Source: Candidatus Aminicenantes bacterium (lineage in GTDB: Bacteria; Acidobacteriota; Aminicenantia; Aminicenantales; Saccharicenantaceae). Taken from it: a stretch of DNA of 64,000 nt. A model generated the notes under the pieces. The model saw only the letters and a program-made list of their open reading frames with translations. It was not told where the DNA came from and made no database searches. The translations under genes and the position numbers were made by a program. Shown piece after piece: positions 42,418 to 57,631 of the stretch. The DNA is taken from positions 941,840-1,005,839 of the forward strand of contig CAVQXL010000004.1 of assembly GCA_963717865.1 (NCBI GenBank). Direction: 5' to 3'. Every line of letters starts with the position of its first letter. Positions within the stretch are counted from its first letter, which is position 1.

Positions 42418-43692
42418 GTGTACCTGATCTATTCGTTCGCCCTGGCCGTCGCGCTCGCCCTCTATCTCCCCTTCTATGCGTTCCGGATGAAGGTCCTGAA
42501 AAAGGACCGCGTCCATCTCCGCGAGCGCCTCGCCCTGGGCCTGGAGAGCCGGCCGGAGGGCCGGGAAGCGGTCTGGATCCACGCGGTCTCGGTGGGCGAG
42601 GTCATTTCGCTCCAGCACCTCATCCGGGAGCTCAAGCGCCGGCATCCCGAGTGGGACATCGTCTTCTCCACGCTCACCCATACCGGGATCAAGGTGGCCA
42701 GGGAAAAGCTCGTCGAGGCGGACCGGATCTTCTTCGTCCCCCTCGATTTCCGGCGCGTCATCCGCCGGGTCTTCCGGGCCGTGCGCCCCGGCGCCCTTGT
42801 CCTGGCGGAATCCGAGTTCTGGCCGAACCTCGTCGGCGAGGCGGCCGACCGTGGGCTGAAGGTCCTCCTGATCAACGGGCGGATCTCCGAGCATACCTTC
42901 AAGGTCTACGAGGACATCCGGCCGATCGCCCGGCGCATCCTCGGGAACGTCGACCGCTTCCTCGTCCAGACCGACGAGGACCGGGAGAGGCTCGAACGGC
43001 TGGGGATCGAGCCCGCGAGGCTCGAGGTCGCCGGCAACCTGAAGTCCGAGGTCCGGCTCCCCGTTTTCTCCGAGGGGGAGCTTCGGGATTTCAAGCGAAG
43101 CCTCGGGCTCGGGGACGGGGAGAAGGTCGTCGTCGCCGGCTCGACGCGGAAGGGCGAGGAGGACCGCCTTCTCAAGGCGTTCGCCGAGGCGCGCAAGGAG
43201 CGGCCGGACCTCCGGTTCATCGTCGCTCCCCGGCACATCGAGAGGGCCGGGGAGATCGAAAGGGCCGCCCAGGCGACCGGCTTCACTGTCGTCCGGCGGA
43301 CGCAGGCCCGGCCGGAAGATCGATGGGATGTGCTTGTCCTGGACACGATCGGGGAGCTGGCCCGCGTTTATGCTCTTTCGGACGCGGCGTTCGTCGGCGG
43401 GAGCCTCGTCGATTGGGGCGGCCACAACATCCTCGAGCCGGCCTATTACGGAAAGCCGGTCTTCTTCGGGCCTCACATGCAGAACTTCGCCCGGCTGGCG
43501 GACTCGTTCATCCGGGCGGGAGGCGCCAGGATCGTCCGGACGGACCCGGATCTCGTGGACATGTTCCTTCTCCGGGACAGTGAAGGCCTCGAAAGAATGG
43601 GCGCACAGGCCCGGGCCCATCTGGCGTCGCTCGGCGGAGCGACGGAACGGACCATCCGGGCCATTGAATGGGCCATGACGAAAAAGGGCTGA
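42418..43692 (+). CDS. waaA: 3-deoxy-D-manno-octulosonic acid (Kdo) transferase
   Basis: Intact 424-aa ORF with WIHAVSVGEV, ESEFWPNL and GGSLVDWGGHNILEPA. Confidence 0.9.
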   Translation: MYLIYSFALAVALALYLPFYAFRMKVLKKDRVHLRERLALGLESRPEGREAVWIHAVSVGEVISLQHLIRELKRRHPEWDIVFSTLTHTGIKVAREKLVEADRIFFVPLDFRRVIRRVFRAVRPGALVLAESEFWPNLVGEAADRGLKVLLINGRISEHTFKVYEDIRPIARRILGNVDRFLVQTDEDRERLERLGIEPARLEVAGNLKSEVRLPVFSEGELRDFKRSLGLGDGEKVVVAGSTRKGEEDRLLKAFAEARKERPDLRFIVAPRHIERAGEIERAAQATGFTVVRRTQARPEDRWDVLVLDTIGELARVYALSDAAFVGGSLVDWGGHNILEPAYYGKPVFFGPHMQNFARLADSFIRAGGARIVRTDPDLVDMFLLRDSEGLERMGAQARAHLASLGGATERTIRAIEWAMTKKG

Positions 43693-44537
43693 GGTCGAGT
43701 TTGCGCTCGAGATCTAGATCGGGCTCAGGAACGCGCCGGGTGCTGGCCGTCGTCCTGATCCTCGGCTTGACGCCCTTCGCGACCGGGGCCGCGACCGAAA
43801 AGGACGCCGGGTCGTTCTCCCGGGCGTTCCATATGACCCCGCCCGTCATCGGGAAGACTCTCGCCTCGCCCGCCCACTGGAAGGGTTCGGACTTTCTGAA
43901 GCTCTCGGCCGTCGTCGGCGCCGGATTCTTCCTTGGCTTCGCGGACGAGGGCATCCGGAACAGCGTCATGGATCATCGGACGCTGGGCGAGAAGCATTTC
44001 TTCGAGCACGTTACGCACTTTGGCGACGGGATCATCCTCGGCGGTTTCATGGCGGGGCTCTTTGCGGTCGGCCAGTTCTCCGGGAACGATGGATTGAGGA
44101 AGACGGCGTGGCTCGGGGTCGAGAGCTACCTCACCGCGAGCGTTTTCTCGACGGTCCTCAAACTTGCGATCGGACGGGACAGGCCCGGAGTAGATAAGGG
44201 GAACCGGAGCTTCCATCCGTTCTCGACGCGATCGTCGCAAACGTCCATGCCGTCCGGGCACGCGACCTCCGTATGGTCCGTGGCCACTGTCATCGCGGAT
44301 CGGGCGGAAAACGGTTTTGTCGATGCCGCCTGCTATGGCGTCGCCGTCCTGACTTCGCTTTCACGGATCTATGTGGACAAGCACTGGGCCTCGGACATCC
44401 TCATCGGATCGGCGATCGGATATTTCACCGCCAAGAAGATCTGTGCCTTGAACCGGGACCCCGGAGGTCCGAGGCTTTCGGCGTCGTTCGGGCCCGCCGG
44501 CCGCGGGCAGGCCATCACCCTTTCGCTCACGTTCTGA
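43668..44537 (+). CDS. PAP2-family phosphatase (membrane)
   Basis: Intact frame with the PAP2 motifs KLAIGRDRP, MPSGHAT and SRIYVDKHWASD. The start is uncertain (ATG 43668 overlaps the waaA 3' end). Confidence 0.8.
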   Translation: MGHDEKGLRSSLRSRSRSGSGTRRVLAVVLILGLTPFATGAATEKDAGSFSRAFHMTPPVIGKTLASPAHWKGSDFLKLSAVVGAGFFLGFADEGIRNSVMDHRTLGEKHFFEHVTHFGDGIILGGFMAGLFAVGQFSGNDGLRKTAWLGVESYLTASVFSTVLKLAIGRDRPGVDKGNRSFHPFSTRSSQTSMPSGHATSVWSVATVIADRAENGFVDAACYGVAVLTSLSRIYVDKHWASDILIGSAIGYFTAKKICALNRDPGGPRLSASFGPAGRGQAITLSLTF

Positions 44538-44637
44538 CGGACCATGAAATCGCCTGGCCGTCGGGCTCGACTTCAGGACGGCCGCGAGCTTCGGGCGCTC
44601 AAGAGTTCCCGCGCCGCCGTTATGCCCTCGTTCTTCA

Positions 44638-44808
44638 AGGCGGGGCGAGAAGCGGGGCTCAGGACTACCCCAGGACAAACCCCGCTATTCCTGCGGGAAG
44701 TCAAAAGGGTTGACCCGTTCGCTGACGCTGGACCCCGCCTTTCCAGGCGGGGCGAGAGGCGGGGCTCAGGGTAACCCCATAATAGCTCTAGCTTTTATGG
44801 GGTTGACG
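44638..44808. repeat. tandem ~107-nt module (two copies), each AGGCGGGGCGAGA(A/G)GCGGGGCTCAGG...GGGTTGAC
   Basis: The 26-nt cores at 44638-44663 and 44745-44770 differ at one position. Each unit ends in a GGGTTGAC -35-like element (44708-44715 and 44801-44808). Confidence 0.6.
44773..44804. promoter_or_regulatory. perfect inverted repeat AACCCCATAA-N12-TTATGGGGTT overlapping the -35
   Basis: The arms are 44773-44782 and 44795-44804. The right arm runs into TTGACG (44803-44808). Confidence 0.6.
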
Positions 44809-44832
44809 GCGCTCCGCGTCCGGCGATATAGT
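44803..44832 (+). promoter_or_regulatory. sigma70 promoter (TTGACG-18-TATAGT) for the MFS gene
   Basis: The -35 is 44803-44808 and the -10 is 44827-44832. An AAGGAGG Shine-Dalgarno lies before ATG 44900. Confidence 0.45.
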
Positions 44833-44899
44833 CGCAATCGGCGCGAGGAATGACGGGCGCGTCCCGTCGCCATTCGAGTGGACCGACCGTGTAAGGAGG

Positions 44900-46303
44900 T
44901 TGACGATGACCGAACAACTGAAAAAGATCCTCAGCGACTCCAAGACCGCCCGCTGGACGGTGATCATGCTGATCTCGGTCACCATGTTCGCCGGGTATTT
45001 CCTGTCCGACGTCATGTCGCCGCTCCAGGGCATGCTCGAAAAGCAGCTGGGTTGGAGCAGTACGGACTATGGATGGTATACCGGCGCCTACGGCTGGTTC
45101 AACGTTTTCCTGTTCTTCCTGATCCTCGGCGGGATGATCCTCGACCGGCTCGGTTCCCGTTTCGCCGGCCTGGCTTCGGCGATCGTCATGGTCGCGGGAG
45201 CATCCATTAAATATTGGGCCATCACGACCCATGTCCTCGACGGGCGGAGCTGGCACATCCTGTTCTGGACCTTCCCCGCCCAGGTCTGGATGGCGGCCTT
45301 CGGATACGCCGTCTTCGGCGTCGGGGTGGAGGTGGCGGGCATCACCACGTCCAAGATCATCGTCAAGTGGTTCAAGGGCCACGAATTGGCGTTGGCCATG
45401 GGCCTGCAGTTGGCCATTGCCCGACTGGGAACGGCCGTCGCCCTCTCGACCTCACTGCCGATCGCCAAGGCCTTCGGGCGCGTCTCGGCGCCGGTCCTGT
45501 TCTGCCTGGTCATGCTCTGCGTCGGTCTGCTGAGCTTCTTCGTCTTCACGTTCAAGGACAGGAAGCTCGACGCCACGATCGCCGCCGCCAAGGTCGGCAC
45601 GGACGCCCCGCCGGAGGAGGCCTTCAGGCTGAAGGACATCCTGATGATCATCAGGAACCGGGGCTGGTGGTACGTGACCATCCTGTGCGCGCTGTTCTAC
45701 TCCGCCGTGTTCCCGTTCCTGAAGTACGCCACCTATTTCATGGTCAACAAGTTCGGCGTCCCGGAATCGTGGGCGGGCGCCATCCCGGGTCTCCTGCCCT
45801 TCGGCACGATCCTGCTGACCCCCGTCTTCGGCAACCTGTACGACCGCAAGGGCAAGGGCGCCTCCATCATGATCCTCGGGTCGGCCCTCATCATCCTGGT
45901 CCACATGCTGTTCGCCGTCCCCATCCTGAACCATTGGCTGCTCGCCATCGGGCTCATGATCATCCTCGGGATCGGCTTCTCCCTCGTTCCTTCGGCCATG
46001 TGGCCGTCCGTCCCGAAGATCATCCCCGAGCGGCAGCTCGGAACGGCGTACGCGCTCATCTTCTGGGTCCAGAACGCGTTCGCCCTGATGTCCGTCCCGG
46101 CCCTGATCGGCTGGGTGCTCGACAAGTACTGCGTGATCGGGACCGTCGTGAGGGACGGGCAATCCGTAACCGCCTATAATTACACCATCCCCATGATCAT
46201 TTTCATGACGTTCGGCCTGACGGCCCTCGTTTTCGCGTTCCTTCTGAAAGCGGAAGACAAGAAGAAGGGCTACGGCCTCGAGCTGCCCAACATCCGGAAA
46301 TAG
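44900..46303 (+). CDS. MFS transporter
   Basis: Intact 467-aa ORF with about 12 TM helices and typical MFS loop motifs (GGMILDRLGSR). Confidence 0.85.
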   Translation: MTMTEQLKKILSDSKTARWTVIMLISVTMFAGYFLSDVMSPLQGMLEKQLGWSSTDYGWYTGAYGWFNVFLFFLILGGMILDRLGSRFAGLASAIVMVAGASIKYWAITTHVLDGRSWHILFWTFPAQVWMAAFGYAVFGVGVEVAGITTSKIIVKWFKGHELALAMGLQLAIARLGTAVALSTSLPIAKAFGRVSAPVLFCLVMLCVGLLSFFVFTFKDRKLDATIAAAKVGTDAPPEEAFRLKDILMIIRNRGWWYVTILCALFYSAVFPFLKYATYFMVNKFGVPESWAGAIPGLLPFGTILLTPVFGNLYDRKGKGASIMILGSALIILVHMLFAVPILNHWLLAIGLMIILGIGFSLVPSAMWPSVPKIIPERQLGTAYALIFWVQNAFALMSVPALIGWVLDKYCVIGTVVRDGQSVTAYNYTIPMIIFMTFGLTALVFAFLLKAEDKKKGYGLELPNIRK

Positions 46304-46399
46304 GGCGCTTCCATGGAGTCGAAACGGTCCTCATCGGAGGCCTCCTCGGCCAAGGCCGGGAGAAGACGCTCCCCAGCCCCATCGAAGGCTTGAAGGTCG

Positions 46400-46987
46400 A
46401 TGCCGCAGGCGATGGATGACGGGGCTGCCCGCAGGCTTTTCAAGAACGGGGGAGCGTGGAGGGCGTGGCTCGCGAAGCACCACGACAAGGAAAAGGGGAT
46501 CTGGCTCCTCTATTACAAGAAGGGATCCGGGAAGACATCGATCACCTACCCGGAGGCGCTCGACGAGGCCCTCTGCTATGGATGGATCGATTCCATCGTC
46601 AAGAAATGCGACGAAGAAAGATACATGCAGAGGTATACGCCGCGAAATCCCCGGAGCCTGTGGTCGGCCGCGAACAAGGGGCACGTCGCAAGGCTCATCC
46701 GCGAAGGCCGGATGACCGAACACGGGCTGGCGAAGGTCGAGGCGGCCAAACGGAACGGCTCATGGACGAGGCTCGACGCGATCGACCGGGACCGCGAGCC
46801 GCCGCGGGACCTCCTCGAGGCCCTGGCCGCCGACCCTGAGGCCGGAACGTGCTTTACAAAGATGTCGCCGTCGTCCAGGAAGCTCTATAGCTTCTGGGTC
46901 GACAGCGCCAAAAGGCCGGAGACGAAGACGCGGCGGATCGCCGAGACCCTCGCCCGGGTCAAGGCGGGCCGGCGGCCCGGGATCTGA
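46400..46987 (+). CDS. YdeI/OmpD-associated family protein
   Basis: Intact frame with WRAWLAKHHDKEKGIWLLYYKK..YPEALDEALCYGWIDS..RYTPRNPRSLWSAANK, typical of the family. Confidence 0.8.
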   Translation: MPQAMDDGAARRLFKNGGAWRAWLAKHHDKEKGIWLLYYKKGSGKTSITYPEALDEALCYGWIDSIVKKCDEERYMQRYTPRNPRSLWSAANKGHVARLIREGRMTEHGLAKVEAAKRNGSWTRLDAIDRDREPPRDLLEALAADPEAGTCFTKMSPSSRKLYSFWVDSAKRPETKTRRIAETLARVKAGRRPGI

Positions 46988-47028
46988 TCCCCTGCTTCCG
47001 GAATCCGTGGACGGATATACCCGATATT

Positions 47029-47037
47029 TGCTATGCT
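47029..47037 (+). promoter_or_regulatory. extended -10 element (TGC-TATGCT)
   Basis: It lies about 20 nt upstream of ATG 47058, with an AAAGGAGA Shine-Dalgarno between. Confidence 0.3.
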
Positions 47038-47057
47038 TGCCCAAAGGAGAAAACGCC

Positions 47058-48752
47058 ATGGCCGAAATTTCGCGCAGGGACTTCATGAGGACGGCTGGAC
47101 TGGCGGCGGCGGGGGGCTGTGGGCTGCTACTCAAAGGCTGTGCGTCCAAGACCTCGTATGACGTCGTCATCAAGGACGGACTCGTCGTCGACGGGCTGGG
47201 GACCCCCGGCCGCGTCGCCGATATCGGGATCGTCGGGGATTCCATCTCCCGGATCGGATCGATCCCGTCCTCCCGCGGCGCGTTGGTCATCCCGGCCCGG
47301 GGGATGGTCGTCGCCCCCGGTTTCATCGACGTTCACAATCACACCGACATCAATATCCTGGTGAATCCCAAGGCCGAAAGCTGTATCCGCCAGGGCGTGA
47401 CCACCCTTGTCGCGGGCCAATGCGGCGACTCGCCGTTCCCGCTTTCGGACGCGATGTTCGAGGAAGCGGAGAGGAACATGAGGAAGGAATACGGCCTCGT
47501 CCTCTCCTGGCGCGATATCCGGGGGTTCTATGCCCTCATCGACCGGGCGGGCACGGCCCTGAATTTTTCGTCGTTCGTAGGACAGGGGACCGTCCGGGCG
47601 GCCGCCATGGGGTATGGGGACGGAAAACCTCAACCGGCCGAGCTCGAGCTCATGAAAAAGCTTGTCGCCGAGAGCATGGCCGGCGGGGCTTTCGGCATCT
47701 CGACCGGCCTCGAGTACGCGCCGGGAGGATTCTCGTCGACGGAGGAGCTCATCGAGGTTTGCCGGGCGGCCGCACCCTATAAAGCGATGTACGCCACTCA
47801 TATGCGGGACGAAGAAGATTTCGTCGTCGAGGCCGTGGACGAGGCCATCCGTATCGCCCGGGAAGCCGGCCTTCCCCTCGAGATCTCCCACCTGAAGACG
47901 GGGTACGTCCGCAACTGGCCCAAGCTCGGGACCATCCTCGAACACATCGAAGCGGCCCGGGCGGAAGGCCTGGACGTCTTCTGCGACCGTTACCCGTACG
48001 TCGCGTCGGCGACGGGCCTCGACCTGTATTTCCCGTTATGGGCGAGGGAAGGGACGACGGATGTCTTCCTGGGTCGGCTCCGCGATCCGGGGCTCGAGGA
48101 AAAGCTCAAGGCCTACGTTGATACCAAAGAGGCGGAGATGGGCTCCTGGGACAAGGTCCTCATTTCCGGCGTCGGTACGGAAAAGAACAAAGGGCTCGAG
48201 GGCATGAACATCCTCGAGGCCTCCCGGAAACAGGGCAAGCCGCCCTACGATTTCATCAGGGACCTTCTCATCGAGGAGAGAGGCCGCGTGGGCATCGTCC
48301 AGTTCGCCATGAGCGAGGACAACCTCAGGACCCTCATGGCCCATCCCCTCGTCGGGATCGGCTCGGACGGCTCCGCCCTCGCGCCCTACGGCCCCCTGGG
48401 CAAGGGCAAGCCCCACCCCCGTTCGTACGGCGCCTTCCCGAGGGCCCTCGGCAAGTATGTCCGCGAGGAACGGCTCCTGCCCCTCGAAGCGATGGTCCGG
48501 AAGATGACCTCGGTCCCCGCCGAAAGGTTCGGCTTCGAGAGAAGAGGGGTCCTGCGGGCCGGCAACTTTGCGGACATTGTCGTGTTCGACCCCGACAGGA
48601 TCCGCGACAAGGCCACATGGGCCGATCCTCATCAATACCCGGAAGGCATCCCCCATGTCCTCGTCAACGGGAAGGTGGTCATCAAGGACGGCGAACATAC
48701 CGGAATCACGGCCGGCGCGGTGCTCCGGAAGGGGGGCCCGGAGGCGGCGTGA
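47058..48752 (+). CDS. N-acyl-D-amino-acid deacylase (D-aminoacylase) family amidohydrolase with Tat signal
   Basis: MAEISRRDFMRTAGLAAAGG is a twin-arginine signal. DVVIKDGLVVDG.., PGFIDVHNHTD follow. Intact frame. Confidence 0.85.
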   Translation: MAEISRRDFMRTAGLAAAGGCGLLLKGCASKTSYDVVIKDGLVVDGLGTPGRVADIGIVGDSISRIGSIPSSRGALVIPARGMVVAPGFIDVHNHTDINILVNPKAESCIRQGVTTLVAGQCGDSPFPLSDAMFEEAERNMRKEYGLVLSWRDIRGFYALIDRAGTALNFSSFVGQGTVRAAAMGYGDGKPQPAELELMKKLVAESMAGGAFGISTGLEYAPGGFSSTEELIEVCRAAAPYKAMYATHMRDEEDFVVEAVDEAIRIAREAGLPLEISHLKTGYVRNWPKLGTILEHIEAARAEGLDVFCDRYPYVASATGLDLYFPLWAREGTTDVFLGRLRDPGLEEKLKAYVDTKEAEMGSWDKVLISGVGTEKNKGLEGMNILEASRKQGKPPYDFIRDLLIEERGRVGIVQFAMSEDNLRTLMAHPLVGIGSDGSALAPYGPLGKGKPHPRSYGAFPRALGKYVREERLLPLEAMVRKMTSVPAERFGFERRGVLRAGNFADIVVFDPDRIRDKATWADPHQYPEGIPHVLVNGKVVIKDGEHTGITAGAVLRKGGPEAA

Positions 48753-49651
48753 TGGTCCGGAGATCCCGGGCCGTCCTTGCGCTCGTCGTCGTCGTCGCTT
48801 CGGCGGCGGCGGCAGCGGCGCTTTCCGCGGCGCGGCAGGATACGCCCCCGGGCCCGGTCATCGGGCTCAAGTACAGGTCCCTCAAGCCCGGCGAGGCCAT
48901 CGTCGCCACGCTCGAGAACGGGAAGGGCGTCCGCCGGGCCGTCTTCAGCTTTCGCGGGCGGGACTATGAGCTCGTCAATTCCGCGGGCGCGGACGAGGCT
49001 CTCGTCTTCATCGGCCTCGACCTGGGGACCCCCGCGGGGACCTATCCCTTATCGGTCGCCGTCGAGAGGTCGGGAGGCGCCCGTGAGATCCTGCGCCGGG
49101 ACATCGTGGTCGAAGCCAAGGAGTTCCCGAGCAAGAAGCTCTGGGTCAAGGAGAGCTTCGCCGTCCCCCCGAAGTCCGTCGAGGAACGGATCGCCAGGGA
49201 GGGCGAGCTCGTCGCGGCCGTCTACGCGAGGGTCACGCCCCGCTGGCTGGGCCGTGGGGATTTCGTCCTTCCGCACGAGGGCAAGGCCTTTCCCAACTTC
49301 GGCCAGCGTCGGATCTACAACGACAAGCCGCGCTCGACCCACGCCGGCGTGGATATCGCCGCGCCCATGGGGTCTCCCATCCGGGCCGCCAACGCCGGCA
49401 CGGTCGTCCTGGCCAGCGACCTGTATCTCTCGGGCCGGACCGTCATCATCGAACACGGGCTCGGCGTCTTCAGCTCCTACGGACACATGTCGAAGATCCT
49501 GGTGAAGAGGGGAGCGTCCGTCGGGAAGGGCGATATCCTCGGAAAGGCCGGCTCGACCGGCCGGTCCACCGGCCCCCACCTCCATTGGGCCGTGAGGATC
49601 TACGACGCGCGCGTCGATCCCTTCTCCCTGCTGGGCCTCGGCCTCGAGTAG
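48752..49651 (+). CDS. M23 family metallopeptidase (secreted)
   Basis: ATG 48752 forms a TGATG overlap. It has a signal peptide, HAGVDIAAPMGSPI and GRSTGPHLHWAV. Confidence 0.85.
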   Translation: MVRRSRAVLALVVVVASAAAAAALSAARQDTPPGPVIGLKYRSLKPGEAIVATLENGKGVRRAVFSFRGRDYELVNSAGADEALVFIGLDLGTPAGTYPLSVAVERSGGAREILRRDIVVEAKEFPSKKLWVKESFAVPPKSVEERIAREGELVAAVYARVTPRWLGRGDFVLPHEGKAFPNFGQRRIYNDKPRSTHAGVDIAAPMGSPIRAANAGTVVLASDLYLSGRTVIIEHGLGVFSSYGHMSKILVKRGASVGKGDILGKAGSTGRSTGPHLHWAVRIYDARVDPFSLLGLGLE

Positions 49652-49731
49652 GGGGCTCCGGCCCCCCTGCGGAGTGAGACGCCCGGCCGCGGTTTCCCGT
49701 CATCAACGAGATGGTGTAGACTGGGAGACCC

Positions 49732-51315
49732 ATGCCCGTCCCGAAAAAGATCGAGATCAACGACGAGTTCCGGAAAGCCCTGGAGCTGATGGAAGGGACG
49801 AACAGCCACGTTTTCGTGACGGGGAAGGCCGGGACGGGGAAATCGACGCTCCTCGAGCACTTCCGGACCGTCACGGGAAAGAAGATCGCCGTGCTCGCGC
49901 CGACGGGCGTGGCCGCCCTGAACGTCGACGGCCAGACGGTCCACTCCTTCTGCCGGTTCAAGCCCGGCGTCACCCTCGACACGGTCAAGAAGGCCCGCGG
50001 GGAGGGGGCGGACCTCTACCGGAATCTCGACGCCGTCGTCATCGACGAGATCTCCATGGTCCGGGCCGACCTCCTGGATTGCGTCGAGAAGTTCCTCCGC
50101 CTGAACGGCCGCCGCCCCCGGGCCTGGTTCGGCGGGACGCAGATGATCTTCATCGGCGATCTCTATCAGCTCCCTCCGGTGGTCACGACCCCGGAGAAGG
50201 ACATCTTCTCCGGCCGCTACGAGACGCCGTATTTCTTTTCTTCGAAGATCTTCGCCGAACCGACGTTCGACATGGAGCTCGTCGAGCTCGAAAAGGTCTA
50301 CCGACAGACGGACGCGGAGTTCGTCCGGCTCCTCAACGCCTTCCGGAACGGTTCGGTCACGGCCGAGGACGTCGCCCTCCTCAACGAGAAGCTCGACCCC
50401 GCCTTCACGCCCCCCGACAGGGACTTCTACATCACCCTGACCAGCACGAACGACCTGGCGGGGCAACGGAACCGGGAAAAGCTCGACCGCCTGCGGGGGG
50501 AGACCTGGACCTCGCGCGGCGAGCTCGACGGCGAGTTCGAGCGGTCCTCGCTCCCGGCCGACGAGCTCCTCGAGCTCAAGGCCGGGGCCCAGGTCATGCT
50601 GGTCAACAACGACCGGCAGGGCCGGTGGGTCAACGGGTCCATCGGCAGGGTCGCCGGATTCACCCGGGAGGAAGAGGGACACGACCGCGTCCTCGTCGAG
50701 CTCCGGGACGGACCGACCGTCGAGGTCGAGCCCTGGGTCTGGGAGCTCTTCCGGTACGGCTACGACAAGGAGGCGAACCGGATCTACGCGGAGCCGACCG
50801 GGTCCTTCACCCAGTATCCGCTGAAGCTCGCCTGGGCGGTCACGATCCACAAGAGCCAGGGGAAGACCTTCGACAGGGTCGTCGTGGACATCGGGCGCGG
50901 CACGTTCGCCCACGGCCAGCTCTATGTCGCCCTCAGCCGCTGTACGAACTTCCCGGGCCTCGTCCTCCGGACGCGGGTCGGCAGACAGCACATCCGGCTG
51001 GACTATCGCGTCATCCGTTTCCTGACCAGGTACCAATACCGGAAGGCCGAGGAACGACTCTCCTATGCGGACAAGAAAGCGCTCATCCGGAGGGCCATCA
51101 GGAGCCGCGTCGAGCTGGACATCGTCTATCTGAAGACCGACGATGCCAAAACGCGCCGCCGCATCCGGCCCGAGAGCATCGAGATGATGGAGTACCGGGG
51201 CAAGGCCTTCGAGGGAGTCCGGGCGTTCTGCCACAAGAGGGGAGAGCCCCGGACGTTCCGCATCGACCGGATGCTCGAGGTCGACGAGGTTCGGGCCAGG
51301 GCGTCAAGGGACTGA
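49732..51315 (+). CDS. PIF1-family 5'-3' DNA helicase with C-terminal WYL domain
   Basis: Intact 527-aa ORF with Walker A GKAGTGKST, VVIDEISMV, IFIGDLYQLPPV, VYRQTD, AVTIHKSQGKTF and YVALSRC. The C-terminus is VELDIVYLKTDD..RRRIRPESIE..FCHKRGEPRTFRIDRM (WYL-like). Confidence 0.85.
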   Translation: MPVPKKIEINDEFRKALELMEGTNSHVFVTGKAGTGKSTLLEHFRTVTGKKIAVLAPTGVAALNVDGQTVHSFCRFKPGVTLDTVKKARGEGADLYRNLDAVVIDEISMVRADLLDCVEKFLRLNGRRPRAWFGGTQMIFIGDLYQLPPVVTTPEKDIFSGRYETPYFFSSKIFAEPTFDMELVELEKVYRQTDAEFVRLLNAFRNGSVTAEDVALLNEKLDPAFTPPDRDFYITLTSTNDLAGQRNREKLDRLRGETWTSRGELDGEFERSSLPADELLELKAGAQVMLVNNDRQGRWVNGSIGRVAGFTREEEGHDRVLVELRDGPTVEVEPWVWELFRYGYDKEANRIYAEPTGSFTQYPLKLAWAVTIHKSQGKTFDRVVVDIGRGTFAHGQLYVALSRCTNFPGLVLRTRVGRQHIRLDYRVIRFLTRYQYRKAEERLSYADKKALIRRAIRSRVELDIVYLKTDDAKTRRRIRPESIEMMEYRGKAFEGVRAFCHKRGEPRTFRIDRMLEVDEVRARASRD

Positions 51316-51339
51316 CCCGAATTCGCCGGAGCCCTTCCG

Positions 51340-51364
51340 GGCGGGGCTCAGGGTCAACCCCATA
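51340..51364. repeat. third copy of GGCGGGGCTCAGGGT(C)AACCCCATA
   Basis: This 25-nt copy is identical to 44758-44781 apart from one extra C. It lies 24 nt after the helicase stop and 35 nt before the next -35. Confidence 0.65.
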
Positions 51365-51398
51365 CATCCTCGATACCAGTGTCGGGCAGGCGAAGGGT

Positions 51399-51427
51399 TT
51401 GACAAAGGCCGGGAGGCTTCCTATAGT
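51399..51427 (+). promoter_or_regulatory. sigma70 promoter (TTGACA-17-TATAGT)
   Basis: The -35 is 51399-51404 and the -10 is 51422-51427, 25 nt upstream of ATG 51453. Confidence 0.5.
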
Positions 51428-51452
51428 AGAGGCTCAAAAAAAGGACCCAAGC

Positions 51453-53039
51453 ATGACGATCACGAGCTTTCCCGACGCCGTCCGTAAAGCCTACGCGGCC
51501 GGCCAGGAGGACGAAGCCCTCGAGCCCATCGTCCGGGTGGACGCGGCGGGCCGTCCCGTGGGCAAGATCGCGGCCGGAGATTCCGTCATCTTCTACGACA
51601 TCCGGGGCGAGCGGGAAGTCGAGCTGACGGAAGCCCTCGTCGACCCGGCATTCTCGCATTTTCCCGCCCGCCGTCTCGATCTCAATTTCGTCACGCTCAT
51701 CGAGTACTCGCGGTCCCTGGGCGTCAAGGTCGCCTTCCCGCCCGAGGAGCATCTCAAGAACACCCTGGTCGAGGTCCTCTCGCTCGCCGGCTTCCGAGTG
51801 ATCAAGGTCGCGGAGTCGGAGAAGGCCATCCACGTCGCCTACTTCTTCAACGGCAAGAGCGATACGGTCTTTCCCCGCGAGGAACGGGTGGTCGTCCCGT
51901 CCCCTCAGACCGGAGATTACGCTTCCGTTCCGGCCATGAGCGCCGCGGGCGTCGTCGACGCGGTCGAAAAGGCCCTGGCCGGCAACGGCTCCAAGCTCGT
52001 CATCGCCAACCTCGCCAACGTGGACGTCGTCGGCCACATCGAGGACAAGAAGGCCGTGCTCGAGGCCATCGGGACCGTGGACAAGGCCCTCGGACGGATC
52101 GTGGAGGCCGCCCGGCGGGAGAAGGCCGTCCTCGTCGTCACCGCCGACCACGGGACCGTGGAGGAATGGCTCTACCCGGACGGGACCGTGAACACCGGGC
52201 ACACGAAGAATCCGGTCCCGTTCATCCTGGCCGATCTTTCCGGCGAGCCCGGCGCCGCCGCCCGATTGAGAGCGTCCGGGGAGCTGGCCGACGTCGCCCC
52301 CACGATCCTCGCGCTGGCGGGAGTCGCCGTCCCGCCGGAGATGACCGGCCGGAGCCTCCTCGAGGGCCCGGCGCCGATCGGGCCCCGCCGGAAGATCATG
52401 CTCCTCATCCTCGACGGCTGGGGCCGGCGCGAGGACGCTGTTCGGCAACATGATCCTGGAGGCGGAGACGCCGCATTTCGACGGCCTCTGGTCGGCCTTC
52501 CCGCACGCCGTCCTCGACTCGTTCGGCGAGGCCGTGGGCATGCCGGCCGGAACCGTCGGCAATTCCGAGGCCGGGCATCTCCATCTCGGCGCGGGCCGGC
52601 GCGTCCTCCTCGACCGGGTCAAGATCGACAAGGCCGTCGAGGACGGGACGTTCTTCCGGAACGAAGCGTTCGTCTGGGCGATGGAGCGCGCCCGGGCGGC
52701 CGACCGGGCCCTTCACCTCATGGGCATCGTCTCCCATTACAGCTCGCACGGCACGATCCGCCATCTCTTCGCCCTCCTGCGCATGGCCCGGGACGCCGGG
52801 CCTGAAGGATGTTTTCGTCCACTGCTTCATCGGCCGGCGGGGGGAGAGGCCGGAGAGCGGGGCCATTTATGTGGAGAAGGTCGAGGAGACCTGCCGGGAT
52901 CTCGGCGACGGGCGAGGTCGTGACGGTCATGGGTCGATTCTGGCCCCTGGACCGGGAGGAGAACTGGGACCGCGTCGAAAAAGCCTATCGCGCCCTCGTC
53001 GACGGCGTCGGCACGAGGGTTTCCCGCCGGGACGCGTGA
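51453..53039 (+). CDS. gpmI: cofactor-independent phosphoglycerate mutase homolog with circularly permuted segment order (about three frame changes)
   Basis: The first about 310 codons match the C-terminal part of canonical GpmI (DSVIFYDIRGERE, IKVAESEKAIHVAYFFNG, ANLANVDVVGH, VTADHG, ELADVAPTILALAGV..PEMTGRSLL). The same frame then continues into the canonical N-terminus (KIMLLILDGWG, GMPAGTVGNSEAGHLHLGAGR, LHLMGIVS, GRFWPLDREENWDRVEKAYRAL), ending at TGA 53037-53039. Confidence 0.75.
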
Positions 53040-53077
53040 CGAGGAACTTTTTACGCCGGCTCCCGTAAGACATTAAG

Positions 53078-53992
53078 ATGAGCCTGGAAGTCAACGATAT
53101 CCATTTCAGCTACGGGCCGATCGCCGCCCTCGCCGGCGTGAGCCTCAAGCTCGAGGGCGGCGCCGTGGGGCTCCTGGGGCCGAACGGCGCCGGAAAGAGC
53201 ACGCTCCTCCGCATCCTCCTCGGGTTCCTGACGCCGTCGAAGGGGGAGGGGAGGGTCCTCGGCTACGACATCCGCACCGAAAGGGCGCTCATCCGCCGGT
53301 CGGTCGGCTATATGCCCGAGGACGACTGCTTCATCGTGGGCATGGACGCCGTTTCCTTCACCTCGTATTTCGGCGAGCTCTCGGGCATGCCCCGTCAGGA
53401 AGCCATGAAGAGGGCCCACGAGGTCCTGTTCTACGTCGGGCTCGGCGAATCGCGGTACAGGCTCCTCGACACGTATTCGGCCGGGATGAAGCAGCGGCTG
53501 AAGCTGGCCCAGGCCCTCGTCCACGATCCCAAGCTTCTGTTCCTCGACGAGCCGACGTCCAACCTCGACCCTCACGGCCGCCAGGAGATCCTCGAGCTCA
53601 TCCGGGACATCTCCTCGGCCAAGGACATCCAGGTCCTCGTCTCGTCGCACATCCTGGCCGATATCGAGACCCTCTGCGCCGACGTCGTCATCCTGAACAA
53701 AGGCCAGGTCGCCGCCCAGGGGAGCTCTGGAGAGCCTCCGGGCGATCGACTACAGCCTGTTCGAGGTCCGCGTCAAGGGCGACGAGAGTCTTTTCCGGGG
53801 CGAAGCCGAGAGCTCGGGGATGCCGCGTCGACGAGACCGAGGACGGCATCCTCAAGGTCTATATGCCCGCCGACAAGGACCGGATGGAGATCTTCCGGGC
53901 GGCCGCTGCGGCCGGGGTCGCAGGTCCGTCACTTCGTCAAGAGCCGGACGTCGCTCGAGGACCTCTTCGCCCGGACGGTGGGAGTGGATTGA
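53078..53992 (+). CDS. ABC transporter ATP-binding protein (frameshifted C-terminal third)
   Basis: Walker A GPNGAGKST, signature YSAGMKQRL, Walker B LLFLDEPTSNLD. The corrected tail is ..DGILKVYMPADKDRMEIFRAAAAAGVQVRHFVKSRTSLEDLF. Confidence 0.85.
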   Translation: MSLEVNDIHFSYGPIAALAGVSLKLEGGAVGLLGPNGAGKSTLLRILLGFLTPSKGEGRVLGYDIRTERALIRRSVGYMPEDDCFIVGMDAVSFTSYFGELSGMPRQEAMKRAHEVLFYVGLGESRYRLLDTYSAGMKQRLKLAQALVHDPKLLFLDEPTSNLDPHGRQEILELIRDISSAKDIQVLVSSHILADIETLCADVVILNKGQVAAQGSSGEPPGDRLQPVRGPRQGRRESFPGRSRELGDAASTRPRTASSRSICPPTRTGWRSSGRPLRPGSQVRHFVKSRTSLEDLFARTVGVD

Positions 53993-54867
53993 TGGCGACG
54001 ATCCGCGAGAAGGGCTACACCCACTGGGACGGGACGCTCCAGGAGCGCCGTTTCCCCTGGTGGCCGATCACCCGGACCGGGCATCCTGCTGACGTTCCGG
54101 AAGAAGCAATTCAAGTTCTTCTTCACCTTCGCCTTCGTCCCCGCCCTGGTCTTCCTGGCCGGGATCTATATCTCGGAGCGGCTCGAGGACTTCAAGTTCA
54201 TGTTCAAGGGCTCGGAGAAGTTCATCACCATCAATCCGGCCTACTTCAAGACCTATTTCACGAGCGACTTCCTGCTGTTCATGATGGTCATGATCCTCGT
54301 CTTCGCCGGCGCGGGGCTCATCTCGGACGACCTGAAGCACAATGCCCTCCAGCTCTATTTCTCCCGGCCTCTCGGGAAAAAGGACTACCTGCTGGGCAAG
54401 GCCTCGGTCGTCTTCTTCTTCATCCTCCTCCTGACGCTGGTCCCCGGTCTCCTCTTCATCGTCTTCAAGCTCATCTTCTCCGGGAGCTTCCGGTTCCTGG
54501 CCGAATATCCCTGGCTCATCCTGTCCGTCATCGGCTATTCCGCCCTGCTGACCCTCTTTTTCGCCTGCTACACGCTCCTCCTGTCCGCGCTCAGCAAGAA
54601 CCGGAGGTACGTGACCATCCTCATCTTCGCCGTCTACCTGTTCTCGGACATCCTCTACGGGATCCTGTTCGGCATCTTCCGCAGCCCGTACGTCGCCCTC
54701 TTCAGCCTCAAGGGGAACCTCCAGCAGGCCGGGGCGATGATGTTCGGTCAGAAGCCGCCGTTCGCCTTTCCGGCGTACCTTTCCTTCCTCGTCCTGGCCG
54801 CGATCTGCGCCGTGGCGGCCGCCGTTCTCTGGCGGCGGATCTGCGGAGCGTCGAGGTGGTCCGGTGA
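53992..54867 (+). CDS. ABC-2 type permease (frameshifted)
   Basis: MATIREKGYTHWDGTLQERRFPWWPITRTG.. is followed by six TM segments in ORF 54200-. The 3' end near 54867 is uncertain. Confidence 0.7.
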   Translation: MATIREKGYTHWDGTLQERRFPWWPITRTGHPADVPEEAIQVLLHLRLRPRPGLPGRDLYLGAARGLQVHVQGLGEVHHHQSGLLQDLFHERLPAVHDGHDPRLRRRGAHLGRPEAQCPPALFLPASREKGLPAGQGLGRLLLHPPPDAGPRSPLHRLQAHLLRELPVPGRISLAHPVRHRLFRPADPLFRLLHAPPVRAQQEPEVRDHPHLRRLPVLGHPLRDPVRHLPQPVRRPLQPQGEPPAGRGDDVRSEAAVRLSGVPFLPRPGRDLRRGGRRSLAADLRSVEVVR

Positions 54868-55795
54868 ATCGCCGACGATCGAGACGCGGAACCTCTCCAA
54901 GTGGTACGGGAACGTCCTCGGCCTGAGCGACGTCACGCTGTCCATCGAGCCCGGGATCACCGGCCTGCTGGGGCCCAACGGGGCGGGCAAATCGACCTTC
55001 ATGAAGCTCCTGACCGGCCAGCTCAAGCCCAACATCGGCGACGTCGCGGTCCTGGGCCGCCGGATCCGCAACGCCTATCCTCTGTTCGCCAAGATCGGCT
55101 TCTGCCCGGAATCGGACGCCTTCTACGAGGAGATCACCGGGTGGGAGTTCCTGACTGGGGCTCCTGTCCTTCTACGGCTATTCGCGGGACGAGGCCCGGG
55201 ACCGGGCGACGAAGGCCCTGGACATCGTCGAGCTCACCGCGGACAAGGACCGGAGGATCCGCGGCTACAGCCGGGGCATGCGCCAGCGCATCAAGTTCGC
55301 CCAGGCCATCGCCCATGACCCCGAGATCATCATCCTCGACGAGCCGCTGAGCGGCCTCGACCCCCTGGGCAAGCGGAAGCTCATCCATCTCGTCAAGCAG
55401 TACCGGGACCAGGGCCGGACCATCCTCGTCTCGAGCCACGTCCTGCCGGAGATCGAGGCCATGACGTCGCGGATCATCCTCATCCACCAGGGGAAGATCC
55501 TGGCCCAGGGCGACATCCATTACATCCGCGACCTCATCGAGACGCATCCGCACGTCATCTCGATCAGGTGCGACGATCCCCGCGCCCTGGCCGCCCGGTT
55601 CGTGAACGGAACCCTACGTCCAGAACCTGAGCTTCGGGCCGGACGCGGACGGCCTCGTCGTCGAGACCCACAACCGGGACGCCTTCTTCGGCCGGCTCGA
55701 ACGCCGTCATCCTGGAGGGGGGCGTCCGCGTCGACGAGATCACCTCGCCCGACGACAACCTTCAGGCCGTGTTCGATTACCTGGTGGGGAAATGA
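54850..55795 (+). CDS. ABC transporter ATP-binding protein (frameshifted; start uncertain)
   Basis: IETRNLSKWYG, GPNGAGKST, YSRGMRQRIKFAQA and IIILDEPLSGLD are present. The corrected C-terminus is ..DEITSPDDNLQAVFDYLVGK, ending at TGA 55793-55795. Confidence 0.8.
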
Positions 55796-55796
55796 C

Positions 55797-56572
55797 ATGC
55801 TGAGAACCGTCCGCGAAGTCGCCGCGTTCTTCTTCTTCCTCGGGCGGAGGGCCCGGAAGATCCGGGCGTTCATCCTGCTCGGCCTGCTCCCGGTCGCCCT
55901 GGCGATCATTGGTGCAGGATCGTCTTCACCCACCGCTCGAGCGAGGTGATGTCCGTGTTCCAGGACATCCTGATGATCTACGACCTGCAGTTCCTGGTCG
56001 GTCATCCTGACGCTGTTCTACGGGACGTCGGTCTGCTCCGAGGAGATCGAAGGGAAGACCCTGCCGTACCTGACCACCCGGCCGCTCTCCAAGGCCGGCA
56101 TCGTCCTGGGGAAATTCGCCGCCTATACGGCCCTGGCTCTCTCATCGTGGGACTGAGCCTGGCGGCATCCTACCTCATCATGAACGGGCGCCGGCTCGGA
56201 CGAGCTGTCAGCCTGGACGGCCCTCCTGCGCTATGCCGGGGTCCTCTTCCTCGGGCTGATGGCCTATATGGCCCTCTTCACGTTCCTCGGCACCCTTCTG
56301 AAGAGGTCCATCCTGATCGGGCTGGCCTTCGGATTCGGCTGGGAAACCGTGATCCAGTACTTTCCCGGATCGACCCAGCGCTTCTCGATCGTCCACTACC
56401 TCAAATCGCTGCTGCCCGTACTACTCGCCGGGGAAGTATCTCGATCCTGACGTTCCGGCTGGAGCCGACGGGCCCGGCGACGGCGGTCCTCGCCCTCATC
56501 CTGATCACGGCCGTCTTCCTGGGGCTGGCCTGCCTGGTCTTCAGTCTGAAAGAATATATGTTCGAGGATTAA
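55797..56572 (+). CDS. ABC-2 type permease (frameshifted)
   Basis: MLRTVREVAAFFFFLGRR.., EEIEGKTLPYLTTRPLSK, ..LIGLAFGFGWETVIQYFPG.. and ..LACLVFSLKEYMFED are spread across three frames. Confidence 0.65.
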
Positions 56573-57631
56573 CCCTCGGGCTCTTCCGCAGGCTCTTCGT
56601 TCGGTACCTCGGCAGGCTCCTCGACCGCAGTCCCTTCGTGGGGCTTCATCATGCCTTCGACCTTCTGCGCGGCCGACTTCGAGAGCCGTTCGAGGACGTC
56701 CTCCGGCAGGCCGGCGGCGATCTTGACGAAATCGGCTCCCGAGGAGATCTCGATCCGGTTCAGGAGCTCGCCGACGTCGGGGTTCTTGGCCGCGGCCCCG
56801 GCCCCCAGGGCCTTGAAGCCGGTCAGCATATCGGCCAGCTGCTTGTTCTTCGCCGCTTCCCCGCCCTGGGTCTTGATCTCCAGGAGGAACGTCTTGTCCT
56901 TGTAGTCGAAGAAGAAGGTCATGGCCTTGATGCCCTCGAGGCTGCTCATCATCGGGTTGGACTGGGCGAGCTTCTTCGTCGCTTCCTCGGGGATGGCGAA
57001 GGCGCTCCAGACCAGGGCGCCCTTGTTCGCGGTCCCGATGATCGCGGCCAGGGCGTCGTTCTTGAGGACGCTCTCGGCTTTCTTCTGCTGGACGTCGATG
57101 ACCTGCCGGACCATCGCGTCGGTGCCGAACGCAGCCGTGGAGGCGTCGAGGAACGCGCCGGAGGCGGGGGGCTTGCCGGGCTCGGACTTGACCCCGGAGT
57201 AGATGGTGACCCCGTTGTAGACGTCTTCCTTGATCTCGGCCTTACCGTCCTTCTTCAGCTTGGCCAGGAGAAGGTCCTTGTCGTACTTCATCCTGACGAC
57301 GACGGCCGCTTCCTGTTTCATGCCTTCGGCCGATCCGGCTACGCCCACGGCGACGAAGTAGATGTCCTTCTGCGGATCGATGCCGGTCTCCTTGATGAAT
57401 TCCTGGTATTTCTGATAGTTCTTGTCCTCTTTGATCGCCTTGTCGGCGAACGGCAGTGGCCATGGCCCGGTGGACGTCGACGACGACGACCCCCTGGGAG
57501 CTCTTGGGAAGAAGCTCGAGGGCGGCCTTGGCGTCGGCCGTCCCGCCCTGCGGGCCTTCCTTCTTGCCGCAGGCGGTGAACGAGAACAGAACGAGCGAAA
57601 TGACGATCCCGAATGTCGCGAGTTTTTTCAT
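56569..57631 (-). CDS. lipoprotein, hypothetical (one or two frame changes near 57400-57500)
   Basis: ATG 57631 gives MKKLATFGIVISLVLFSFTACGKK (lipobox) after a GGAGGA Shine-Dalgarno. The body is in ORF 56569-57348. I recognise no family. Confidence 0.6.

What the first reader, a model, noticed from the sequence alone, without database searches (positions are those of the whole stretch)
51453..53039. Cofactor-independent phosphoglycerate mutase homolog with circularly permuted domain order
The ORF opens with sequence that aligns to about residues 225-511 of canonical GpmI. Matching blocks are AYAAGQEDEALEPIVRV (canonical SYKHGIYDEFVLPSVIV), DSVIFYDIRGERE (canonical DAIIFYNFRPDR), IKVAESEKAIHVAYFFNG (canonical RIAETEKYPHVTFFMSGG), ANVDVVGH (canonical ANPDMVGH), VTADHG and DVAPTILALAGV..PEMTGRSLL. 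After the canonical C-terminus the same reading frame continues through the linker EGPAPIGPRR (about 52360-52397). It then runs into the canonical N-terminus: KIMLLILDGWG, the nucleophile motif GNSEAGH (52558-52578), LHLMGIVS and GRFWPLDREENWDRVEKAYRALVDG. It stops where the canonical protein would reach about residue 235. In the known iPGM fold the N- and C-termini both belong to the phosphatase domain, so joining them and opening new termini inside the transferase domain is structurally plausible. Several canonical substrate-site motifs also diverge (SDGGVHSH becomes SHYSSHGT; FLDGRD becomes FIGRRG), so the activity may not be phosphoglycerate mutase. I am not aware of a described permuted iPGM, but I cannot search to confirm that. 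About three homopolymer-type frame changes (about 52440, 52800, 52905) lie in the second half. None is at the junction.
Basis: partly seen in the sequence, partly recalled or inferred. Interest (0 to 1): 0.75.

Follow-up and report, generated by a model that had tools for sequence, protein, structure and literature searches.

The report
Circularly permuted cofactor-independent phosphoglycerate mutase
This gene encodes a glycolytic-type phosphoglycerate mutase whose two halves are joined in swapped order. The rearrangement is natural, is conserved across a whole bacterial class (Aminicenantes) and beyond, and I found no paper describing it; the frameshifts in this copy are sequencing errors.

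Summary
Window 51453-53039 (+) encodes a 527-aa iPGM homolog in permuted order. Residues 9-303 match G. stearothermophilus iPGM 219-509. A 9-aa linker follows, then residues 313-520 match iPGM 4-211.

The three frame changes are single-base insertions relative to a 98.6-99.2 % identical public contig whose ORF is intact. They belong to a run of about 22 such insertions in window 52436-57457, so they are assembly errors and not decay.

The architecture is not a mis-join. At least 80 species-level genomes, nearly all Aminicenantes and including complete chromosomes, carry full-length colinear orthologs. Of the 150 best 50 %-identity cluster representatives, 17 are permuted at the same breakpoint.

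The window's protein belongs to a well-supported deep clade ("class I", NJ bootstrap 198/200). All metal ligands, the Ser nucleophile and 7 of 8 substrate-contact residues are kept. Asp154 and several other near-universal iPGM residues are replaced.

A second set of permuted proteins keeps canonical motifs; one of them overlaps pgi.

The mechanism is most likely that of iPGM. The substrate (3PG/2PG or another organophosphate) remains inferred. No paper describing a permuted iPGM was found.

The parts
51440..51445 (+). Possible ribosome-binding site (AAAGGA), 7 nt upstream of the start codon
   Evidence: Read from the sequence. This is inference only.
51453..53039 (+). Complete permuted iPGM gene. 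It gives 527 aa once the three spurious 1-nt insertions are removed. ATG at 51453, stop at 53037-53039.
   Evidence: The corrected product is 98 % identical over 527/527 residues, without gaps, to the intact P0001.
51453..51710 (+). Residues 1-86: C-terminal part of the transferase (cap) domain, canonical residues about 211-300. Contains Arg51 and Arg54, which correspond to Gst Arg261 and Arg264.
   Evidence: Pfam iPGM_N 137-216. PDB alignment. Residue table.
51735..52361 (+). Residues 95-303: C-terminal part of the phosphatase core. Contains Lys124 (= K336), Asp191/His195 (= D403/H407), Asp232/His233 (= D444/H445) and His250 (= H462).
   Evidence: Pfam Metalloenzyme 62-250, E 1.7e-41. Invariant columns of alignment A1.
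52362..52388 (+). Nine-residue linker EGPAPIGPR, joining the canonical C-terminus to the canonical N-terminus
   Evidence: Unaligned gap between the two HMMER stretches. Linkers are 8-11 aa in other permuted proteins, and one homolog (P0113) has a roughly 40-aa insertion here. AF2 predicts coil, with pLDDT 77 for residues 301-310.
52389..52608 (+). Residues 313 to about 385: N-terminal part of the phosphatase core. Contains Asp321 (52413-15, = D12), the nucleophile Ser371 (52564-66, = S62) and His375 (= H66).
52624..53036 (+). Residues about 391-527: N-terminal part of the transferase domain. Contains His432 (52747-49, = H123), Arg462 (= R153), Gly463 (52841-43, in place of D154), Arg494 (= R185) and Arg500 (= R191).
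   Evidence: Pfam iPGM_N 1-58 and 95-131..
52436..52436 (+). Spurious single-base insertion (C); frame shifts A to B
   Evidence: blastn against L001. L001 reads CGC GAA GAG CTG here.
52796..52797 (+). Spurious single-base insertion (one C of CC); frame shifts B to C
52907..52907 (+). Spurious single-base insertion (G); frame shifts C back to A

Best explanation
The locus is a functional gene for a circularly permuted member of the cofactor-independent phosphoglycerate mutase family.

Architecture. In canonical iPGM the transferase (cap) domain is inserted into the phosphatase (alkaline-phosphatase-like) core. Here the chain starts in the middle of the transferase domain, at canonical residue about 212. 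It runs through hinge 2 and the C-terminal part of the core, then crosses a 9-residue linker that ties the old C-terminus to the old N-terminus. It continues through the N-terminal part of the core and hinge 1, and ends where it began in the transferase domain. The core therefore becomes the contiguous, 'inserted' domain and the cap becomes discontinuous.

Mechanism (inferred). The catalytic machinery is intact, so the mechanism is expected to be that of iPGM. The two domains close on the substrate, the phosphate is transferred to the active-site Ser on a two-metal centre, the substrate reorients in the Arg/His pocket, and the phosphate is transferred back. The most likely substrate pair is 3-phospho/2-phosphoglycerate, which I put at about 0.55, as the housekeeping PGM of Aminicenantes.

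Frameshifts. The three frameshifts in this window are sequencing or assembly errors.

Shown versus inferred. Shown: the permutation, its conservation, residue conservation and purifying selection. Inferred: activity, substrate and the origin of the permutation (classically tandem duplication, in-frame fusion and end trimming).

The confidence of 0.8 refers to the core claim: a real, functional, permuted iPGM-family phosphotransferase whose frameshifts are errors.
For: Permuted order: Pfam, NCBIfam and PDB sequence matches.

Intact homolog: P0001 is 98 % identical over all 527 aa and sits in the same synteny.

Frameshifts as errors: they are 3 of about 22 single-base insertions (against 1 deletion) confined to window 52436-57457, relative to a 98.6-99.2 % identical contig whose ORFs are intact.

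Breadth: at least 120 full-length hits at 62-98 % identity. 80 of 80 best species-level genome loci are full-length and colinear, including closed chromosomes OY970122.1, OY969586.1, OY969696.1, OY969762.1 and CP070825.1. 17 of the 150 best 50 % representatives are permuted, with the same breakpoint and 8-11 aa linkers.

Selection: dN/dS is 0.19-0.26.

Residues: the Ser nucleophile, His66, all seven metal ligands, Lys336, His123, Arg185, Arg191, Arg261 and Arg264 are kept in 10 of 10 class I representatives, and are invariant in 38 Aminicenantes sequences. Pocket residue identities come from PMC5382265.

Structure: the AF2 model has pLDDT 86.4 and pTM 0.76. The 22 best Foldseek PDB hits are all iPGM, each aligning about 300 columns, as expected when a sequential aligner meets a permutant.

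Permutation compatible with PGM: a permuted protein with fully canonical motifs overlaps pgi by 4 nt, so the permutation as such appears compatible with a glycolytic role.
Against: Asp154 is D in 52 of 55 canonical sequences but is Gly here, and S/G in 9 of 10 class I representatives.

Other near-universal iPGM residues are replaced throughout class I: G121S, V122S, S124G, N259 lost, D263E, M404V and N447 variable.

No glycolytic neighbours were seen in Aminicenantes loci. The conserved downstream neighbours are ABC-2 transporter genes.

In other class I lineages the gene sits beside GDPD and an ABC importer, or a PhnS2/T2/U2-like importer, or a bona fide ApgM, or a phosphohexomutase.

I could not test whether Aminicenantes genomes carry another PGM. 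No enzymology exists.
Confidence: 0.8

Rival explanations
1. Same permuted fold and phosphoserine/two-metal chemistry, but the class I clade, including this Aminicenantes protein, has a new substrate. It would be a phosphomutase or phosphatase acting on another organophosphate, such as a glycerophospho-compound, a phospho-sugar acid or an imported phosphoester, rather than 2/3-phosphoglycerate.
For: Class I is a distinct deep clade (NJ bootstrap 198/200).

It carries clade-wide replacements of residues that are near-invariant in canonical iPGM: D154, N259, G121, V122, N447 and M404.

There is a recurrent gene cluster of GDPD plus an orthologous ABC importer in two lineages about 45 % identical to each other. 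One of those loci holds two class I paralogs.

A PhnS2/U2/T2-like importer lies directly upstream in a third lineage.

A bona fide ApgM-type PGM (561 bits against a cutoff of 468) lies in the same operon in a fourth lineage.
Against: The whole cationic pocket that holds phosphoglycerate (H123, R185, R191, R261, R264, K336 and mostly R153) is retained.

The Aminicenantes branch does not share the importer/GDPD context.

The gene is found in every one of the 80 best Aminicenantes-type genomes and is under purifying selection, like a housekeeping gene.

Organisms with two PGMs are known; E. coli has GpmA and GpmM (own knowledge).
Confidence: 0.35
2. The copy in this window is a decaying pseudogene, and the three frameshifts are real mutations.
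For: There are three +1 frameshifts within 480 nt of the second half. A public gene call of exactly this truncated 450-aa product exists (P0122).
Against: The insertions belong to a run of about 22 single-base insertions (1 deletion) over 5 kb. The run also breaks four ABC-transporter genes, while the flanking 8 kb upstream has almost none. The run is strongly insertion-biased and mostly not in homopolymers, which is typical of an unpolished long-read patch. Apart from the indels the sequence differs from the intact L001 copy at only 37 nt, with dN/dS 0.19.
Confidence: 0.04
3. Assembly artefact: two tandem or collapsed gpmI copies were mis-joined, giving an apparent C-half then N-half order.
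Against: The same single ORF, with the same junction and a short non-homologous linker, is present in at least 80 independently assembled genomes, including closed chromosomes. It also appears in JGI, ENA, NCBI and Logan assemblies. The gene is flanked by unrelated genes on both sides, and no further iPGM fragments occur in the window.
Confidence: 0.01

Closest known systems
Canonical bacterial cofactor-independent phosphoglycerate mutase (GpmI/GpmM; e.g. Geobacillus stearothermophilus iPGM, PDB 1EJJ/1O98; TIGR01307; Pfam PF01676 + PF06415)
   Same: Both domains are present in full, at about 36-44 % identity. The Ser nucleophile, His66, all seven metal ligands, Lys336 and pocket residues His123, Arg153, Arg185, Arg191, Arg261 and Arg264 are the same. 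Both hinges are retained. The predicted fold matches only iPGM structures.
   Different: The chain order is circularly permuted at canonical residue about 212-219, with a 9-aa linker joining the old termini. As a result the core, not the cap, is the contiguous domain. Asp154 is Gly. There are clade-specific changes: SDGGVHS to S..SSHG, NFRxDRA to (D/C)xRGERE, DMVGH to DV(V/I/L)GH, and the HGN Asn is lost. No glycolytic operon context was seen.
Permuted iPGMs with canonical motifs ('class II' here: P0132, P0134, P0136, P0253, module in P0176)
   Same: Same breakpoint and same linker length.
   Different: They keep SDxGVHS, FLDGRD, GRYYAMDRD, NFRxDRARE and DMVGH. One overlaps pgi. They do not group with class I in NJ trees, and their placement is unsupported.
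Archaeal-type iPGM (ApgM, TIGR00306/PF10143) and phosphopentomutase (DeoB)
   Same: Same alkaline-phosphatase-like metal core with a cap domain inserted into it. There are weak matches to the core only.
   Different: The cap domain is different. Scores are far below the family cut-offs: 31.6 against 320, and 41.8 against 254. These families are not permuted.

Membership tests
iPGM (GpmI; TIGR01307, PF01676+PF06415) | Contains a complete Metalloenzyme core and a complete iPGM_N cap domain | tested here: met
   Pfam pieces cover Metalloenzyme 23-250 and iPGM_N 1-58, 95-131 and 137-216. PDB matches cover 1EJJ 4-211 and 219-509.
iPGM (GpmI; TIGR01307, PF01676+PF06415) | Colinear order core-N / cap / core-C (cap inserted in core) | tested here: not met
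   The order is cap-C / core-C / linker / core-N / cap-N.
iPGM (GpmI; TIGR01307, PF01676+PF06415) | NCBIfam equivalog score above the curated cut-off | tested here: inconclusive
   TIGR01307 scores 460 bits against a cutoff of 330, but only as the sum of two non-colinear stretches. NF003897 scores 370 against 862. NCBI records name the homologs inconsistently.
iPGM (GpmI; TIGR01307, PF01676+PF06415) | Ser nucleophile and the seven metal ligands (D12, S62, D403, H407, D444, H445, H462) | tested here: met
   All are invariant in the 38 Aminicenantes sequences and in 10 of 10 class I representatives.
iPGM (GpmI; TIGR01307, PF01676+PF06415) | Phosphoglycerate pocket: H123, R153, D154, R185, R191, R261, R264, K336 | tested here: inconclusive
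   Seven of eight are kept. D154 is Gly463 here and S/G in 9 of 10 class I representatives, against D in 52 of 55 canonical sequences. The residue list comes from PMC5382265.
iPGM (GpmI; TIGR01307, PF01676+PF06415) | iPGM fold | tested here: met
   The AF2 model has pLDDT 86.4. Foldseek top 22 hits are all iPGM, E 1e-17 to 1e-11, each aligning one half. A permutation-aware superposition was not available.
iPGM (GpmI; TIGR01307, PF01676+PF06415) | Catalyses 3PG to 2PG interconversion without 2,3-BPG | not testable with these tools
   No enzymology. Context is uninformative in Aminicenantes.
ApgM (TIGR00306) | Score above the family cut-off; PhosphMutase cap | tested here: not met
   31.6 bits against 320, covering the core only.
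Phosphopentomutase (DeoB) | Score above the family cut-off | tested here: not met
   41.8 bits against 254.
Natural circular permutant arising by duplication-fusion | Existence of tandem-fused intermediates | tested here: inconclusive
   None of the 10 long proteins (590 aa or more) among the 150 best representatives shows a duplicated half. Sampling was limited to those 150 best.

The most novel reading that the evidence does not exclude
The 'class I' permuted proteins, including the near-universal Aminicenantes gene in this window, are not phosphoglycerate mutases. They would be a previously unrecognised enzyme family in which circular permutation accompanied a change of substrate towards imported organophosphates. 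The support is the recurrent linkage to glycerophosphodiester phosphodiesterase and to a dedicated ABC importer, and to a true ApgM in the same operon. If this holds, the 'gpmI' calls in metabolic reconstructions of Aminicenantes and other lineages would be wrong.
Probability: 0.3. Interest if true: 0.75.

Novelty: new variant of a known kind. Interest (0 to 1): 0.55.

Why it matters
iPGM is a textbook two-domain enzyme whose catalysis depends on large hinge motions, and it is a drug target in nematodes and trypanosomatids. A natural, ancient and widespread permutant that inverts which domain is 'inserted' is a ready-made test of how chain connectivity affects domain closure and folding.

It also matters for annotation. 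Sequence-profile pipelines name these proteins inconsistently (iPGM, alkaline phosphatase family, sulfatase-like, hypothetical). The clade containing this gene has a remodelled substrate pocket. The PGM step in reconstructions of Aminicenantes metabolism therefore rests on an untested assignment.

Finally, the case shows that the frameshifts in this window are assembly noise and not biology.

Tried and rejected
1. Collapsed tandem or mis-join. Rejected because at least 80 independent genomes carry the same ORF.

2. Pseudogene. Rejected because the insertions form a 5-kb, insertion-biased error patch spanning five genes, and dN/dS is about 0.19.

3. Single origin of all permuted proteins. Not demonstrable. 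NJ trees recover class I (198/200) but never an all-permuted clade (0/100 and 0/200). Class II placements have 26-37 % support. No ML tree tool was available.

4. Duplication-fusion intermediates. Searched for among the long representatives; none found.

Only the L090 ApgM was found.

6. Locating the window's own contig through its truncated product P0122. Not on record.

7. Shared ABC-2 transporter between Aminicenantes and L089. Not orthologous.

8. Literature. Four searches for permutation together with iPGM, PGM or the alkaline phosphatase superfamily gave nothing relevant. Aminicenantes papers did not address PGM.

9. tRNA and Rfam scans of the window. Both empty.

Full report
**What is in the sequence**

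Window 51453-53039 on the + strand opens with ATG at 51453, preceded by AAAGGA 7 nt upstream. The frame runs to about 52433, then continues in the +1 frame to about 52800, in the +2 frame to about 52909, and back in the original frame to the stop at 53037-39. Splicing the four pieces gives a 527-aa protein.

Pfam places the pieces in this order: iPGM_N 137-216, Metalloenzyme 62-250, Metalloenzyme 23-61, iPGM_N 1-58, iPGM_N 95-131. NCBIfam TIGR01307 (iPGM) scores 460 bits, but in two stretches. Protein residues 8-303 match model positions 215-504.

An intact public homolog, P0001, is 527 aa and 98 % identical without gaps. Against the G. stearothermophilus iPGM structure 1EJJ it matches as 313-520 to 4-211 and 9-303 to 219-509. 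A 9-residue linker (EGPAPIGPR, 52362-52388) joins the old C- and N-termini.

**The frameshifts**

P0001 is encoded on a 521-kb ENA contig (L001) with the same gene order as the window: M23 peptidase, PIF1-WYL helicase, permuted iPGM, two ABC-2 transporter pairs. The window is 98.6-99.2 % identical to it over 21.5 kb.

Each of the three frame changes is a single extra base in the window, at 52436, 52796/7 and 52907. They belong to a run of about 22 single-base insertions, against one deletion, confined to 52436-57457. The run also disrupts the downstream ABC genes, while the 8 kb upstream is almost free of indels. Most are not in homopolymers.

This pattern indicates a locally unpolished stretch of assembly and not gene decay. 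Apart from the indels the gene differs from L001 at 37 nt, with dN/dS 0.19. Against more distant orthologs dN/dS is 0.19-0.26. The truncated 450-aa product of the uncorrected ORF is itself in the public protein collection (P0122).

**Not an artefact, and not rare**

- The protein search returned at least 120 full-length hits at 62-98 % identity, all 503-571 aa.
- A scan of one genome per GTDB species returned 450 relatives. The best 80 are all full-length and colinear, at 55-87 % identity. Nearly all are labelled Candidatus Aminicenantes, Aminicenantales or Aminicenantia. They include five closed chromosomes and Ca. Aminicenans sakinawicola.
- In an exhaustive phmmer search of 1.84 billion 50 %-identity representatives, 17 of the best 150 are permuted and 132 are canonical.
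- All permuted proteins share the same breakpoint, within a few residues, and have linkers of 8-11 aa.
- Named members outside Aminicenantes include Limnochordia (Bacillota) and a Pseudomonadota-labelled MAG. NCBI names range from 'phosphoglycerate mutase' through 'alkaline phosphatase family protein' to 'hypothetical protein'.

**Two kinds of permuted iPGM**

Class I comprises ten representatives, including the window's protein. They form a clade in NJ trees of re-ordered sequences (bootstrap 198/200). They are only 37-48 % identical to each other.

Class I keeps every catalytic element:

- Asp12, Ser62, His66, Asp403, His407, Asp444, His445, His462 and Lys336;
- pocket residues His123, Arg185, Arg191, Arg261 and Arg264 in 10 of 10;
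- Arg153 in 7 of 10.

Class I replaces residues that are nearly invariant in canonical enzymes:

- Asp154 becomes S/G; it is Gly463 in the window protein, and D in 52 of 55 canonical sequences;
- Gly121 becomes Ser, Val122 becomes Ser, Ser124 becomes Gly and Asp263 becomes Glu;
- Asn259 is lost, Met404 becomes V/I/L and Asn447 is variable.

The pocket residue list is taken from the S. aureus/C. elegans comparison in PMC5382265.

Class II comprises five representatives that are permuted at the same place but keep all canonical motifs. Their position among canonical sequences is unresolved, with 26-37 % support for any pairing and 0/200 for an all-permuted clade. One origin or several cannot be decided here.

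**Structure**

An AF2 model of P0001, built with a 38-sequence alignment, has mean pLDDT 86.4 and pTM 0.76. The linker is predicted as coil, and residues 314-320 form the first core strand, which leads to Asp321. The 22 best Foldseek hits in the PDB are all iPGM. Each aligns about 300 columns with TM about 0.4-0.5 of full length, which is what a sequential aligner returns for a permutant.

The topological consequence is an inversion. In canonical iPGM the cap is inserted into the core. In this protein the core (about residues 95-385) is contiguous, and the cap is split between the two ends. Both hinges are retained.

**Function**

The intact two-metal and serine machinery, together with the retained cationic pocket, argues for iPGM-type phosphoryl transfer. 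The most likely substrate is 3PG/2PG. Presence in all 80 best Aminicenantes-type genomes, under purifying selection, fits a housekeeping role.

The permutation itself appears compatible with glycolysis. A class II gene overlaps pgi by 4 nt.

The substrate is nevertheless not established for class I. In Aminicenantes the gene has no glycolytic neighbours. In 58 of about 68 loci it is followed on the same strand, at a median gap of 78 bp, by a DrrA/GldA-like ABC ATPase and ABC-2 permeases.

Contexts in other class I lineages:

- beside a glycerophosphodiester phosphodiesterase and an orthologous SBP / fused-permease / ATPase importer in two divergent lineages, one of which carries two class I paralogs;
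- directly downstream of a PhnS2/U2/T2-like importer;
- in a HAD / class I / bona fide ApgM / PRK-like kinase cluster;
- next to a phosphohexomutase in Limnochordia.

I therefore put PGM activity at about 0.55 and a changed substrate at about 0.35.

**Comparison with what is known, and novelty**

By composition, residues and fold this protein is an iPGM-family member. It fails the family's colinear domain order and one pocket residue. It is not ApgM or DeoB.

Four full-text searches combining permutation with iPGM, PGM or the alkaline-phosphatase superfamily found nothing describing this. A 2025 survey of 338 iPGAMs does not mention it. The library covers open-access papers only. No NCBIfam or Pfam model is specific to this architecture.

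I rate it a new variant of a known kind: real, widespread, apparently undescribed, and of moderate interest (0.55). The interest would rise if class I proves to have a new specificity.

Noticed in passing
window 52436-57457: About 22 single-base insertions (1 deletion) relative to the 98.6-99.2 % identical contig L001. Most are not in homopolymers. They break the permuted iPGM gene and the four downstream ABC-transporter genes. The 8 kb upstream (42954-49669) has none. This looks like an unpolished, insertion-biased patch of a long-read assembly.
   Followed up: yes
window 49674-52805 (+): A 1043-aa 'ORF' arises because the iPGM reading frame stays open for 1.8 kb upstream, across the helicase gene. 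This is a high-GC artefact. The true start is ATG 51453, as in all homologs.
   Followed up: yes
window 49732-51315 (+): A PIF1-family helicase with a C-terminal WYL domain lies immediately upstream. It is present only in the window's closest relatives (L001-L003, 88-100 % identity). In the other Aminicenantes loci an M23 peptidase or a prolyl-oligopeptidase-like gene is the neighbour, so this is a lineage-specific insertion.
   Followed up: partly
window 53078-56600 (+); L002-L081: Two consecutive ABC ATPase + ABC-2 permease pairs (DrrA/GldA-like) follow the permuted iPGM on the same strand in 58 of about 68 Aminicenantes loci, at a median gap of 78 bp. Whether this reflects a functional link or inherited synteny is unknown.
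   Followed up: partly
L095 4073-13548; L087 6001-13038: Class I permuted iPGM genes are clustered with glycerophosphodiester phosphodiesterase(s), a LysR regulator and an orthologous ABC importer (fused permease 606-618 aa, ATPase, SBP-like protein). L095 carries a second class I paralog at the end of the cluster.
   Followed up: partly
L090 142-4949: An operon-like run of HAD hydrolase, class I permuted iPGM, bona fide ApgM-type PGM (NF003160 561 bits against cutoff 468), a 398-aa PRK/uridine-kinase-like protein, then LacI, KduI and a Gfo/Idh/MocA oxidoreductase.
   Followed up: partly
P0176 (5027 aa), residues 3859-4375: A permuted iPGM module with canonical motifs is embedded in a giant predicted protein that starts with a TM-like segment. 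It is not homologous to the giant PPDK_N protein that overlaps the class I gene in L091/L092. It is either a true fusion or a gene-calling artefact.
   Followed up: partly
window 51306-51393: The intergenic region between the helicase and the iPGM gene differs from L001 by several small indels and substitutions, more than the flanking coding DNA.
   Followed up: no
P0113 (L030), linker region: One Aminicenantales ortholog has a roughly 40-aa insertion exactly in the linker that joins the old termini. This shows the linker tolerates large insertions.
   Followed up: no
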